Shown here piece by piece: positions 23,796 through 39,850 of a stretch of 64,000 nt of DNA. Made by a program: the position numbers and the translations under genes. Below the pieces are notes generated by a model that saw nothing but the letters and a program-made list of their open reading frames with translations, was not told the DNA's origin and did not search any database. The stretch is taken from the NCBI GenBank assembly GCA_964016885.1, contig OZ024740.1:185132001-185196000 (forward strand), in the 5' to 3' direction. Every line of letters begins with the position of its first letter. Within the stretch, counting starts at the first letter, position 1. This DNA is from Eledone cirrhosa. Lineage: Eukaryota.

Positions 23796-24182
23796 ATCAT
23801 CATCATCATCATTTTACGTCCACTTTTCCCTGCTTGCAAGGGTGGGACGGAAACTGATTCTGGCTTGATTTCTACAGCTGGATGCCCTTCCTAACACCAA
23901 CCTCATTTACAGTGAGTGCTGGGTGCTTTTTTTTCGTGGTGCTTACACGTCCACTTTACAGTGTGGGCTGGGTACTTTTTTGCCGTGGCACCTCAACGAC
24001 CACTTTGAAGTGGAATGATAGGAACCCCATTCCTGTCATCACATTTCTACATCTGAGTAAACTGGAGCAATGTGAAATAAAGTGTCTTGCTCAAGGAAAC
24101 AACACATCACTCGGTCTGAGAATTGAACTCACAATCTTTTGATTGCAAGCCCAATGCTCTAACCACTAAGCCATGTGCCTCC
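23796..24182 (-). mobile_element. tRNA-head SINE with RTE-derived tail, full length
   Basis: Reverse-complement copy of 35646-36000. Confidence 0.88.
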
Positions 24183-31817: not shown

Positions 31818-32654
31818 CTATGGAAGAAAAACAAATTTATCTGACTAAATATCTGAAACAACTGAAATCTGATAAAATAACTATGCTAAGAAAACACAAC
31901 AAAATACATTAACATAAATAAAATAAAATTAAATTGAATTAAAAGACAAATAATAAAAATGAAGAAAAAGCTAGTGCTGCAATGTAGTTATCAAGAAGAA
32001 AATGAAAGTAAAATAAAACAAAATTAAATGTATGATAGAAAAATGAATAAACTGTTTTCATTTGAATTATATAAATTTAGAAATAAAATGTTAACATTCT
32101 CATGGAATTGAAAGAGTGAAAATATAAAACAACAACAAGAAAGAAATAGAAATAATTTTCTAAAATTTTCATAAAAGTAAATATATAAAATTATAATCAC
32201 AAACAAAGTATTAAACTCTGATACAATTAAAAAGAAGACAAGTTTGATGCTATGCATTATTTTTTGGAGAAAATTTGTAAAATTGTTTTCTATACAAATA
32301 GCATGACCAATCTCATTTCATGGAATTTAATATTTAATTTGCAAAAGAACGACAGAATTTTATTTAAGACGACTACATTAGGAATACATTTCCATTTTTA
32401 ACTTTTCAAATAATTTTAAGTTTCCCAAAATATGTTTGTGTGTTTATGTATTTAGATAAATTTATCAACAGTATTTGAAATACATCAAATATAGTTGTAG
32501 AAATAATTTGAATATTCAACCAGTGCATATACAATTGCAGAAGAACCCAGCCAGATACACAAATCTATATTCATATATACATGTGTGTATGTATTTTATA
32601 TATTATGAAACCTGGCAATAGGATGCATATATAATCTGCAGTGTATGCCATAAT

Positions 32655-32765
32655 TGTTTCTAATTTAGGCACAAGGCCATCAATTACCCAGTGCATTACT
32701 GTTACTTTATTTTATCGACCCCGTAAGGATGAAAGGCAAAGTAAACCTTGGCGGGATTTGAACTC
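32655..32765 (-). mobile_element. 3' half of SINE family B, fused downstream of a tRNA-Asp copy
   Basis: GAGTTCAAATCCCGCC...CCTTTCATCCTTACGGGGTCGATAAAA...CCTTGTGCCTAAATTAGAAAC. Confidence 0.9.
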
Positions 32766-32780
32766 AAAAAAATTATGAGC

Positions 32781-32850
32781 CTCCCCGGCGGGGAATCGAA
32801 CTCCGGTCTCCCGCGTGACAGGCGGGGAAACTTCCCACTATACTACCGAG
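32781..32850 (-). tRNA. tRNA-Asp(GTC) retrocopy/pseudogene
   Basis: CTCGGTAGTATAGTGGGAAGTTTCCCCGCCTGTCACGCGGGAGACCGGAGTTCGATTCCCCGCCGGGGAG. Anticodon arm CCCGC-CTGTCAC-GCGGG. It lacks the first 2 nt, has a T-stem mismatch and lies inside a TSD-flanked insertion. Confidence 0.9.
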
Positions 32851-33626
32851 TGTATGCCATAATGAGTCTTAGGGTATTTTTCACCAAAATTGCTCAACAA
32901 ATATTCATAAAATTATGAAATATTTTGAGCTGTAACATAAGCCTGTAGAGTGAAAGAATAATCAGAAAATAGCATAATTCAAGAATAAGAAAGAGTGTGT
33001 GTGGGTATGATACATGTAAACATCAGTAACTGGTTAAAGATTAATTTAAACATAAGCTCAAATCTTACTCCAGGCATTCTGTTCTGCTCTTCAGAAAACT
33101 CATAACTTTGATTGCTTTAAATTTACTCAACTATATTCAGGACCATATATATATATGTTTGTGTGTGTTATATGAAGGGCCCACCCAGCCTGAACTGACA
33201 CAGTCCCATGAAGGTCGAAATTTGGTCATGACTAAATTTGCAGGCAACAAAGATGGAATTGTTAGTGTTGTGATATTTAGTTGTTGCTCTTTACATTTTG
33301 AGTTCAAGTCCTACCATGGTCAACATTCTTTATCATTATCTTAGACTCTATAAAACAAATTACCAGTTAAGTACTGAAGTCAGCTTAGTCAACTGTACTC
33401 TCCCTAAATATCTGTGGTCTTGTGCCAATATATTGGTGACATTAAACAGGACATTTTGTGTCCCTGTTTATGGTGACTTTTATTGCTTTTTCAAAGACAT
33501 CTACAGACTAAATGAATTAAAATAGCTTCAAATGGTGAGAAAGCTGAGATCACATCACAGACAAGATGAAAAATTTCATCATCTTTTGTTTTTGTCAATG
33601 TTCATTACAAAAGTAAAAATTTTGCC

Positions 33627-37069: not shown

Positions 37070-39850
37070 TCATCATCATCATCATCAACGTTTAACGTCC
37101 GTATTCCACGCTTGCATGGGTTTGGACGGGGGTTTTCCTACTTGAGGCAAGAGTGATTGCCTTGCTCGCATAGGACTGTCTGGCGGGTTTTCTACAGCTG
37201 GATGCCCTTCCTAACACCAACCACATTCACAGTGTGGGGCTGGGAGGTTTTTACCGTGTTGCCTACACAGCCACATTACAGCGTGGATTGTGTGTTTTTT
37301 TGTCGTGACACCTACACGATCTCATTTGTTTCGGCGTGGATGTTGTGGCACCAACATAACTTTACATTGAAAGGGGCGGTGTGGATGGAGGTGGGGGTGG
37401 TGGGACGGGGTATATTTTGTTATAGATGCCTACTGACTGTAGAAGGTTTTACTTCATATTTAGGTCAGGCGGGTCTTCTCTATTACTGAGTACGGCCAAA
37501 GGTCTTGGTCCAGTGACATTGTCTTGGAGAGGTGTAAGTGTGTGAGGTCAGAATTTATCAGCTCGTCCCAGGTTTTTCTGTGTCTGCCTATTTCGTGGCT
37601 ACCGTCTATCTTTATTGCCCTGCACTTTGTTATACAGCTATCGTCTTACATGCGCATCACGTGACCATACCAACGTAGCCTTCTCTCGAGTAAACAACAT
37701 CTGATCCCTCTTGTTTCTAATTTTTTCCTTAGTTCGTTTATGCTTTGCCGTTCACGTATATTACTATTACACATCCAGCAGAGCATGCAAGCTTCGTTCC
37801 TCTCTAGTCTGCGTATATCCTCTGCACACAATGCCCAGGGCTCACTGCCATGCAACATTGCTGTTTGTATGCAGGCATCATACAACCTGCCTTTCATTTT
37901 TAGGGAGAACCCTTTAGCAGCTAATAGTGGTATAAGCTCTCTGAACTTTTTCCATCCAGTTCTGACTCTAGCTACTGTACTTTCAGAGCACCCTCCCCCA
38001 CTGCTGATTTTATCGCCCAGGTAACGGAAGCTGTCCACTATTTCTATAGAACCCTCTGCGCAATTGAAAGAGCTAGTATTTTGTGGGCACTTGCTGCTAC
38101 TTATTGCACCAGAACACCGGCCACATGTAAAGTCTATGTTCTTAGTTAGCTTACCTGTGATCCCACTACATCTTTTATGCACCCAAACTTTGCATTTGGG
38201 ACACAAAATGGAATTTCTACCTACGCCTTTCCTACACACCGAGCACGACCATTTCCCAGAAGGGACCGCTGCCTTGTTTTCTTTCCTACAAACTAGAACT
38301 TTGGTCTTAGCCAGGTTAATTTTAAGTCCTTTTGATTCTAGGCCGTGCTTCCATGTTTGGAATTTCTTCTCTAGCTCGGCCATTGATTCCGCTATGAGTG
38401 TCAGGTCGTCTCCGTATAGGAGTTCCCATGGGCAGCCTGTCTTGAACTCCTCTGTTATAGCCTGAAGGGCAATAATAAATAGTAGGGGGCTGAGAACAGA
38501 GCCCTGATGGACGCCAACTTTTACGCAAAACTCTTCACTATATTCATTGTTAATTCTAACCTTGCTGACTGTTTCTTTATACATGGCTTGTATAGCCCTC
38601 ACAAGCCATTCGTCAACGCCTAGTTTTCTAAGAGCCCACCAGATAATGGAGCGGGGGACTCTGTCGAAGGCTTTCTCCAAGTCGACGAAAGCTAAGTATA
38701 GGGGTTTACATTTAGCTAGGTACTGCTCCTGTAGTTGTCGTACAATGAAAAGAGCGTCTGTGGTACTTTTTCCTGACACAAACCCGAACTGCATTTCATC
38801 TAGATCAATTCGCTCTCTGATTAGTTGCGCTATTACTTTTTCCGTGACATTCATGACCTGGTCGATTAATTTAATGCCTCTATAGTTACTCCTATCTAGG
38901 GCATCTCCTTTACCCTTATAACAGTTAACGATAATGCTGCTGCGCCAGTCCTTCGGAACAACCCCATTCTGTATGACTTGGTTGACTATCCGGGTGACCA
39001 TGGTGTGTCCCACCGTACCAGATGCCTTCAGCATCTCGGCAACTATTTCCGAAGGCCCAGCCGCCTTGCCTGTCTTCATATCTTTGATTGCCTTACTTAT
39101 TATACTACCCTCGACTAACACTGCTGGTCCCTCTATTGGGTCGATGTGGGGGAGACTGTCTTTCTCCCATTTATTCTCCTCATTTAGTAGCCTTTCATAG
39201 TGACCGTTCCAAGCTACCTTCTTATCGGCGTCGGTGATGGCAAGTATGCCGTCATCGTTAAGTACACACTTCTCCCCGACAATATCACTGTTTTCCTTGA
39301 CACATTGCCTAGCAATCCTGAACACCTCACGTTTTTGGTCATCGCGTTGTAGAACATGCTTGAACTTTCTTTCCTCTGCTTCCCTTCTTGCTAAGTACAC
39401 TTGTCTCCTAGCTTCCCTCCTGGCCACTTGATAGTCTTCTCTGCTTCCCCCATCCCGCCATACTTTCCAAGCCTGCTTTTTGGCCTTAATTGACCCCTCC
39501 ACCTTACTGTTCCACCACCATGTTACTCTCCTCCTGCCTACAGGCCTGCTCCAGCCACAGACTTCGTCTGCCGCCGTCAGCAGGTTTGCTTTCAGGAATT
39601 CCCACTGTTCCTCTACCTTGTACGTCTCTAATTGCTCTTCCTCACTGTCGAAAGCATCAAGTAATATGCTTTGGAATTTATTTTTGGCTGTGGGGTCCTT
39701 TAGCTTCCATATTTTTCTCCTGAGGATAGTCCTCTTCTGTTGTCTAGTACGTCTCGTCCTGACTATTAGGTCGCTAATTATCAGTCTATGTTGGGAAGTG
39801 CATTCTTCATGGGGAGGGATTTAGGGTTTACGACAGTCACTTTGTCACGT
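37070..39850 (-). mobile_element. 5'-truncated RTE-clade LINE (end of endonuclease, RT, PHD finger, 3' UTR)
   Basis: RT motifs KGKGDALDRSNYRGIKL, QFGF, AFVDLEKAFDRV, GVHQGSVLSPLLF, YGDD, FRYLG; (GAT)n tail; both ends lie in (TA/TATG)n. Confidence 0.95.
37646..39502 (-). CDS. RTE reverse transcriptase ORF remnant with an embedded PHD finger (frame open from about 39820)
   Basis: 618-aa ORF containing CSVC...CPKCKVWVHKRC...CGRC. The terminal TAA is premature: the sister copy at 18471 reads atg-aaa-gac. Confidence 0.9.
   Translation of the reverse strand: MEGSIKAKKQAWKVWRDGGSREDYQVARREARRQVYLARREAEERKFKHVLQRDDQKREVFRIARQCVKENSDIVGEKCVLNDDGILAITDADKKVAWNGHYERLLNEENKWEKDSLPHIDPIEGPAVLVEGSIISKAIKDMKTGKAAGPSEIVAEMLKASGTVGHTMVTRIVNQVIQNGVVPKDWRSSIIVNCYKGKGDALDRSNYRGIKLIDQVMNVTEKVIAQLIRERIDLDEMQFGFVSGKSTTDALFIVRQLQEQYLAKCKPLYLAFVDLEKAFDRVPRSIIWWALRKLGVDEWLVRAIQAMYKETVSKVRINNEYSEEFCVKVGVHQGSVLSPLLFIIALQAITEEFKTGCPWELLYGDDLTLIAESMAELEKKFQTWKHGLESKGLKINLAKTKVLVCRKENKAAVPSGKWSCSVCRKGVGRNSILCPKCKVWVHKRCSGITGKLTKNIDFTCGRCSGAISSSKCPQNTSSFNCAEGSIEIVDSFRYLGDKISSGGGCSESTVARVRTGWKKFRELIPLLAAKGFSLKMKGRLYDACIQTAMLHGSEPWALCAEDIRRLERNEACMLCWMCNSNIRERQSINELRKKLETRGIRCCLLERRLRWYGHVMRM

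What the first reader, a model, noticed from the sequence alone, without database searches (positions are those of the whole stretch)
32640..32863. TSD-flanked chimera of an unprocessed pre-tRNA-Asp and a SINE 3' half (possible SINE head swap)
Seen on the minus strand: tRNA-Asp(GTC) missing 2 nt at its 5' end (32850-32781), no CCA, then the trailer GCTCATAA and a T7 run, joined directly to the SINE-B B box (GAGTTCAAATCCCGCC), body and tail. The whole unit lies between perfect 15-bp direct repeats agtgtatgccataat (32640-32654 and 32849-32863). Known: oligo-T ends Pol III transcripts, and LINE reverse transcriptases make chimeras by template switching (as in U6-L1). Inference: RT started on SINE RNA and jumped onto the oligo-U end of a nuclear pre-tRNA in a single insertion event. 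The internal T7 should block read-through, so the copy is probably dead on arrival unless that run mutates.
Basis: partly seen in the sequence, partly recalled or inferred. Interest (0 to 1): 0.72.

Follow-up and report, generated by a model that had tools for sequence, protein, structure and literature searches.

The report
Unprocessed tRNA fused to SINE half
A copy of a tRNA transcript still carrying its raw 3' end is fused to the back half of a short mobile repeat (SINE) inside one insertion footprint, likely because a retrotransposon's copying enzyme jumped from one RNA to the other; it is a single, probably dead copy, and this genome holds dozens of similar fusions.

Summary
Observation confirmed. 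A perfect 15-bp TSD encloses tRNA-Asp(GTC), its trailer, T7 and the 3' 111 nt of an abundant SINE. Two intact genes on another chromosome carry the same trailer (3 of 84 differences). The junction is unique, so it is no subfamily. A relative's contig leaves the sequence at the TSD edge.

Targeted searches gave 33 distinct tRNA-retroelement fusions, including this one and two doubtful ones. They cover at least 8 tRNA types and three partners. Some keep 5' leaders or unspliced introns, one is tripartite, and one of 17 unbiased hits is a mature CCA tRNA.

Best reading (0.85): TPRT began on the SINE tail, likely by an L1-clade (Tx1-type) LINE sharing its 3' hairpin and ATT target. The RT then jumped onto the oligo-U end of a nuclear pre-tRNA. 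RNA ligation is not excluded. The 'head swap' founded nothing: T7 should stop Pol III and three stems are damaged.

This is a variant of known U6-LINE/SINE chimeras. The scan already noted the class in this genome and others.

The parts
32849..32863 (-). Upstream target-site duplication (15 bp, begins ATTAT on the element strand); its last 2 nt are shared with tRNA positions 3-4
   Evidence: plain copies of this SINE also have ATTAT-starting TSDs of 11-20 bp
32781..32850 (-). tRNA-Asp(GTC) copy, positions 3-72, no CCA; A and B boxes recognisable; acceptor, D and T stems each damaged
   Evidence: ARAGORN; Rfam alignment; 3 substitutions against source genes L033/L034
32773..32780 (-). 8-nt 3' trailer of the pre-tRNA, identical to that of source genes L033 and L034
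32766..32772 (-). T7 run = Pol III terminator of the source gene (T6 in L033, T8 in L034); last T also fits the SINE consensus (1-nt overlap)
   Evidence: (loose-end consensus)
32655..32765 (-). 3' half (111 nt) of the abundant short-type SINE: B box, core, tail with 3-bp-stem hairpin (32668-32678)
   Evidence: 6 of 111 differences from the majority of 46 copies
32640..32654 (-). Downstream target-site duplication; its first 5 nt double as the SINE's ATT tail (priming site)
   Evidence: 82 of 112 SINE tails continue with ATTAT
51545..53464 (+). Decayed, 5'-truncated L1-clade (Tx1-type) LINE elsewhere in the window; its 3' end shares the SINE's hairpin loop, 13-nt spacing and ATT tail, so it represents the likely partner family (start approximate)
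   Evidence: RVT_1; zf-RVT; sequence; Tx1 label taken from earlier scan notes

Best explanation
This is a single-copy chimeric retrocopy, likely made in one insertion event when a LINE reverse transcriptase copying a SINE RNA jumped onto the oligo-U 3' end of an unprocessed tRNA-Asp transcript. Shown: one TSD around both parts; source genes with the same trailer and terminator on another chromosome; similar divergence of both halves; a TSD of this SINE's usual ATTAT type; many parallel fusions, some with leaders or introns. Inferred steps: (1) an L1-clade/Tx1-type ORF2p nicked an ATTAT site and primed on the SINE's ATT tail. (2) It copied 111 nt up to the B box and stopped. (3) The cDNA's terminal A paired with the last U of a nuclear pre-tRNA from L033 or L034, and the RT copied trailer and tRNA. 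(4) The 5' end was joined 15 bp away through 2 nt of microhomology. Pol III would stop at T7, so the unit is predicted not to be transcribed whole, and it has left no detected daughters.
For: TSD encloses both parts, with no repeat around the SINE alone. A sequential insertion looks different: L133 has a SINE with its own TSD beside a tRNA-like T-arm. Source genes: 2 of 5 exact trailer hits are intact genes 13 kb apart on C7. Ages agree: head plus trailer 3 of 84 (3.6%), SINE half 6 of 111 (5.4%; median of 45 copies 4.5%). In run X1 (organism A) a 4085-nt contig aligns over 32011-32655 and not into the SINE, with 1973 nt left over. Recurrence: 5 of 10 trailer hits are chimeras; 7 of 9 T-loop..TTTT..SINE-start hits are tRNA-like; 16 of 17 T-loop..LINE-tail hits are tRNAs, 15 with trailers and 1 with CCA; reversed-pattern controls gave 0. 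Nuclear template: intron-retaining tRNA-Lys chimeras L106, L144, L147, with an intact gene L143 carrying the L106 intron and trailer. Jump rather than ligation: at least 7 chimeras join at the very 5' end of the SINE (L031, L101, L102, L104, L106, L107, L108), and L041 joins a second pre-tRNA to a 5' leader. Such ends would be 5'-triphosphates (inferred), which RtcB joins poorly (PMC6789731, passages). R2 RT jumps with 0-2 bp of pairing (PMC8594491, passages). Partner LINE: shared hairpin loop, 13-nt spacing and ATT tail.
Against: No direct evidence for the jump; at this locus the SINE is internally truncated, so a ligatable 5'-OH fragment is conceivable. The letters beyond the TSD in the relative's contig were not displayed, the alignment ran 1 nt past the TSD, and a tRNA-only allele is therefore not excluded. 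The SINE-LINE tail similarity is short. A search for a LINE with the exact SINE tail found none in 30 of 655 hits examined. T7 is longer than a typical Pol III U-tail (recalled). Many chimeras lie in (TA)n or tandem SINE arrays without a clear TSD, so some could be genes with a later insertion. Transcription was not tested.
Confidence: 0.85

Rival explanations
1. RNA ligation first: a pre-tRNA 3' end was ligated (RtcB-like) to a SINE RNA fragment and the fused RNA was retrotransposed in one pass, as shown for human U6/L1.
For: U6/L1 chimeras with 4-8 T at the junction arise by RtcB ligation (PMC6789731, passages). Here the SINE is internally cut. For the second partner (LINE tail), 10 of 30 sampled copies begin within 1 nt of one position and the T-run junction has no microhomology, which could mark a processed RNA end.
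Against: RtcB needed a 2',3'-cyclic phosphate and a 5'-OH. Nascent Pol III ends are 3'-OH (recalled). Joins at SINE 5' starts, at a pre-tRNA leader (L041) and behind a mature CCA (L120) are hard to explain this way.
Confidence: 0.08
2. Two independent insertions: a pre-tRNA retrocopy came first and a 5'-truncated SINE later inserted into its T-run.
For: 5'-truncated copies of this SINE do occur behind genomic T-runs (e.g. L057, L062, L065 among 13 hits). The tRNA's absence in the relative was not seen directly.
Against: The SINE has no TSD of its own. Its tail runs straight into the same 15-mer that precedes the tRNA, and that 15-mer starts with the SINE's ATTAT target. L133 shows the extra TSD expected for a sequential insertion.
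Confidence: 0.05
3. Member of an established SINE subfamily with a tRNA-Asp head (a completed head swap).
For: The structure resembles a SINE: tRNA head with A and B boxes, core and LINE-like tail.
Against: 1 of 13 T6+B-box hits has a tRNA upstream. The five chimeras with this trailer type have four different junctions, and none repeats this one. T7 lies inside the unit.
Confidence: 0.01
4. DNA-level recombination or conversion between the B boxes of a tRNA gene and a SINE copy.
For: Both parts carry similar B boxes.
Against: A homologous crossover would leave one B box and no trailer. Here both B boxes, the trailer and the terminator are kept, and both flanks are the TSD.
Confidence: 0.01

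Closest known systems
U6 snRNA chimeric retrocopies with LINEs and SINEs (U6/L1; U6-L2 and U6-Mon-1 in platypus; U6-RTEX and U6-AnolisSINE2 in anole). PMC4476161: passages and section 10 read
   Same: Oligo-T-ended Pol III RNA in sense, 5' of a truncated LINE or SINE, inside one TSD; several LINE clades; SINEs serve as first template.
   Different: The 5' partner here is a pre-tRNA with gene-specific trailer (in other copies also leader and intron). It carries an internal Pol III promoter, unlike U6. That paper suggests template switching may be largely restricted to U6/U6atac in mammals.
Human tRNA/LINE-1 chimeras. bioRxiv 10.1101/2025.02.02.635956: passages read; supplements closed
   Same: tRNA sequence and retroelement inserted together within 9-19 bp TSDs.
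   Different: Those 21 loci are mostly antisense tRNA halves ascribed to twin priming. Here the tRNA is sense, near full length and unprocessed. The word 'trailer' does not occur in that main text; its supplementary table of loci could not be seen.
WEIRD/Mg-SINE/MGL bi- and tripartite chimeras of Magnaporthe. PMC2104539: abstract read
   Same: Template jumps at preferred sites of the first template; double jumps (as in L041 here).
   Different: The captured RNA is not a pre-tRNA.
L1-mobilised pre-tRNA and tailless retropseudogenes. Schmitz 2004: not held, seen only as cited in PMC4476161 and PMC4494074
   Same: Nuclear pre-tRNAs can be retrotransposed.
   Different: As cited, direct priming on the small RNA without a SINE or LINE tail.
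SINE head addition by template switch (SINEU; tRNA added to 7SL SINEs). PMC4494074 and PMC4758252: passages read
   Same: Proposed route by which SINEs gain or exchange heads.
   Different: Those are amplified families; this is an unamplified copy with an internal terminator.

Membership tests
Template-switch chimeric retrocopy (U6/LINE type) | Both parts in the same orientation inside one TSD | tested here: met
Template-switch chimeric retrocopy (U6/LINE type) | 5' part is a copy of a cellular RNA ending at its natural 3' end, with a source gene elsewhere | tested here: met
   L033/L034, same trailer, ends in the terminator T-run
Template-switch chimeric retrocopy (U6/LINE type) | 3' part is the 3' end of a LINE-mobilised element with its normal target site | tested here: met
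Template-switch chimeric retrocopy (U6/LINE type) | Empty orthologous site lacking both parts | tested here: inconclusive
   SINE half absent in organism A; letters beyond the TSD not shown
Template-switch chimeric retrocopy (U6/LINE type) | Join made by the RT rather than by RNA ligation | not testable with these tools
   only indirect arguments from junction classes
SINE family (new tRNA-Asp-headed subfamily) | Multiple copies sharing the same head-body junction | tested here: not met
SINE family (new tRNA-Asp-headed subfamily) | Pol III transcript spanning head to tail (no internal T4+) | tested here: not met
   T7 at 32766-32772; RNA itself not examined
Functional tRNA-Asp gene | Intact cloverleaf stems | tested here: not met
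   non-standard pairs in acceptor, D and T stems
SINE mobilised by a Tx1-type LINE | Shared 3' end and target with the LINE | tested here: inconclusive
   same 5-nt loop on a different 3-bp stem, 13-nt spacing, ATT tail; similarity short; clade shown only as RVT_1 + zf-RVT, no tree

The most novel reading that the evidence does not exclude
Oligo-U-ended pre-tRNAs are a main acceptor class for RT jumps by several LINE machineries in this lineage. They supply a standing pool of promoter-plus-tail proto-SINEs in which the copied terminator is the main barrier. Copies whose T-run is already interrupted (L041, L117, L124) are read through, and such a copy can found or has founded a new SINE family. 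The same fossils record start sites, introns and terminators of tRNA primary transcripts.
Probability: 0.2. Interest if true: 0.7.

Novelty: new variant of a known kind. Interest (0 to 1): 0.43.

Why it matters
The locus itself is a dead by-product. The class matters for two reasons. Template switching is the standard but rarely observed explanation for how tRNA heads meet LINE or SINE tails, and here dozens of such intermediates can be counted, traced to source genes and sorted by processing state. They also point to a testable bottleneck: the jump lands on the terminator, so the new unit is born with a stop signal between promoter and tail.

Tried and rejected
(1) The C3 tandem Asp/Glu array (1336-bp unit) as source: different trailer. 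(2) LINE partner by exact SINE tail with a non-SINE upstream: 655 hits, 30 examined, all SINE variants or truncated SINEs, none with RT similarity. (3) The window's RTE-like ORF (37649-39820) as partner: its 3' region lacks the SINE tail. (4) Runs X2 and X3 showed no orthologous flank contig, only repeat matches. X4 matched 32000-32678 with no difference and showed no empty allele, and it may be the source sample. The tRNA side and far flank were not covered by reads. (5) Folding the trailer-plus-SINE region gave no unusual stability (z -0.06). (6) Modification-induced RT errors: no recurrent mismatch position seen by eye among Asp chimeras. (7) Schmitz 2004 not held. (8) Paper searches listed no paper whose title or abstract start describes sense pre-tRNA-trailer-SINE chimeras as a class; one search returned nothing; subscription journals are largely not searched. 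(9) U6/5S chimeras and RNA expression were not examined.

Full report
OBSERVATION. The minus strand reads: 15-bp repeat (32863-32849), tRNA-Asp(GTC) from position 3 to the discriminator, an 8-nt trailer, T7, 111 nt of SINE from B box to tail, and the same 15-bp repeat (32654-32640). ARAGORN and Rfam both call the tRNA. The repeat is far beyond chance: 0 of 3000 random non-microsatellite positions gave 12 bp or more. The last two bases of the upstream repeat equal tRNA positions 3-4, a 5' microhomology. The window is C1:185,132,001-185,196,000 of a 3.0-Gb genome. That it is octopus-like is recalled from the repeat sequences and stated in earlier scan notes; I did not test it.

SOURCE GENE. The best DNA hits are a tandem Asp/Glu tRNA array on C3 with a different trailer. 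An exact search for the acceptor end plus trailer plus TTTT gave 5 hits, control 0. Two are intact genes on C7, 13 kb apart (L033 with T6, L034 with T8); one is the finding; two are further chimeras. Head plus trailer differ from either gene at 3 of 84 positions. With the two lost 5' bases, these damage the acceptor, D and T stems. The SINE half differs from the majority of 46 short-type copies at 6 of 111 positions; 45 of those copies have a median of 4.5% (one short row dropped). The two halves are thus compatible with one age.

ONE EVENT. The only convincing flanking repeat encloses both parts. It starts with ATTAT, as do 82 of 112 SINE tail continuations and several 11-20-bp TSDs of plain copies. 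So the insertion was primed at the SINE tail in this SINE's normal way (inference). L133 shows the alternative anatomy, a SINE with its own TSD next to a tRNA-like arm. In run X1 (organism A), a 4085-nt contig aligns over 32011-32655 with 34 substitutions and 24 gap letters and does not continue into the SINE, although 1973 nt remain. The SINE half is therefore absent there. The letters beyond were not displayed, so a tRNA-only state is not excluded.

NOT A SUBFAMILY. T6 plus the SINE B box occurs 13 times genome-wide and only the finding has a tRNA in front. A 2-mismatch trailer search gave 10 hits (control 3): 5 intact genes and 5 chimeras, none repeating this junction. Among 16 hits of T-loop..TTTT..SINE core, most are rearranged SINEs. 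The tRNA-like ones are the finding, L135 and L130 (both doubtful) and L133 (sequential).

A RECURRENT PROCESS. Three partners take up pre-tRNAs.
(a) The same SINE, mostly joined at its very 5' end: 7 of 9 hits are tRNA-like and 2 are SINE-SINE; L104/L105 are one duplicated event; L101 has a perfect 17-bp TSD.
(b) The ~60-nt 3' end of a young RT-encoding LINE (RVT_1; 1739 exact 46-mers). 10 of 30 sampled copies begin within 1 nt of the same base, and the T-run junction shares no homology with the LINE. With T5 required, 6 of 11 hits carry tRNA sequence by eye. With no T-run required, 16 of 17 hits are tRNAs. Of these, 15 have trailers: 8 with T4 or more at the junction, 6 with short or interrupted T-runs, 1 ending just before the T-run. 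One is a mature tRNA-Asp with CCA (L120).
(c) A third SINE (L044, 16-bp TSD with one mismatch).
My hand count over searches is 33 distinct events including the finding, of which L055 and L135 are doubtful. They cover Asp, Glu, His, Pro, Arg, Asn, Leu and Lys plus one odd tRNA-like RNA. This is a lower bound from exact patterns. Many lie in (TA)n or SINE arrays where a TSD cannot be read, so some may be genes with later insertions.

THE TEMPLATE IS A NUCLEAR PRECURSOR. L106, L144 and L147 keep the tRNA-Lys(TTT) intron; intact gene L143 has the L106 intron and trailer. L035 and L041 keep a 6-nt leader matching L033 and L042 and starting at an A after a C, a plausible Pol III start (inference). 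L109 and L116 share an 11-nt leader. L114 and L122 follow the C3 array Glu trailer up to the first or a later T-run. L041 is tripartite: Glu 3' half with trailer and T4, then leader-bearing Asp precursor, then LINE tail, like the double jumps of PMC2104539 (abstract).

MECHANISM. The SINE consensus upstream of the junction ends in TTCT, so the T-run overlaps it by one exact base. The R2 RT engages RNA 3' ends with 0-2 bp of pairing, adds untemplated bases (most at high dATP, a condition that suppressed jumping in that assay) and favours templates complementary to a +1 overhang (PMC8594491, passages). A cDNA ending in A would therefore favour U-ended RNAs (my inference). RtcB ligation, shown for U6/L1, needs a cyclic phosphate and a 5'-OH (PMC6789731, passages). 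That fits poorly with joins at SINE and pre-tRNA 5' starts or behind CCA, but it cannot be excluded at this internally cut SINE. For the enzyme, earlier scan notes proposed a Tx1 LINE. I checked this on a decayed LINE in the window with RVT_1 and zf-RVT. Its end has the same 5-nt loop on a different 3-bp stem, 13 nt, then ATT repeats, as in the SINE. The similarity is short, and a search for a LINE with the exact SINE tail failed in 30 of 655 hits, so the partner is likely, not shown.

COMPARISON AND NOVELTY. It works like U6-LINE/U6-SINE chimeras (PMC4476161, passages and section 10) and meets the testable structural criteria, with a pre-tRNA in place of U6. Human tRNA/L1 chimeras are mostly antisense halves (bioRxiv 2025.02.02.635956, passages; supplements closed and may hold sense cases). 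Pre-tRNA retropseudogenes are known (Schmitz 2004, as cited). Searches listed no paper describing this class. The scan itself has noted it before, in this genome (e1-9570173) and others; these notes are leads, not support. Verdict: real, a new variant of a known kind, interest 0.43.

Noticed in passing
L041 (G000:C3:264.17 Mb): Tripartite chimera: 3' half of pre-tRNA-Glu with T4, then full pre-tRNA-Asp with 6-nt leader and an interrupted T-run, then LINE tail; suggests two successive jumps and lacks a T4 terminator before the tail.
   Followed up: partly
L101:1530-1602 and L135:1450-1522: Two diverged copies of an odd tRNA-like sequence with a GGA anticodon and no long variable arm, with near-identical trailers; source gene not looked up.
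   Followed up: no
L070-L099: A young RT-encoding LINE (1739 exact 46-mers of its tail) inserts into (TA)n; 10 of 30 sampled copies are cut within 1 nt of the same base at the foot of the 3' stem-loops, a strong RT stop or RNA processing site.
   Followed up: partly
L046 and L055: tRNA-Leu 3' pieces begin 1-3 nt after T-loop A58, as a methyl-A block would give; L055 holds the piece inverted. Only two cases, and most of my patterns required the T-loop.
   Followed up: partly
G000:C3:277.25-277.33 Mb (L002-L030): Tandem array of 1336-bp units, each with tRNA-Asp(GTC) and tRNA-Glu(TTC) on opposite strands; one unit has an internal partial duplication of the Asp gene.
   Followed up: partly
window 37649-39820 (-): 724-aa RTE-like open frame with RVT_1 and a PHD-finger hit (E 3.6e-5) C-terminal to the RT.
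   Followed up: no
L150, L152: Further intron-containing tRNA-Lys retrocopies: L150 with an inverted 5' duplication, L152 with a duplicated 5' piece and joined to an unidentified sequence in a tandem repeat.
   Followed up: no
window 24116-24173 (-): Second Rfam tRNA hit is the head of the third SINE family (the one fused in L044), not a gene.
   Followed up: partly
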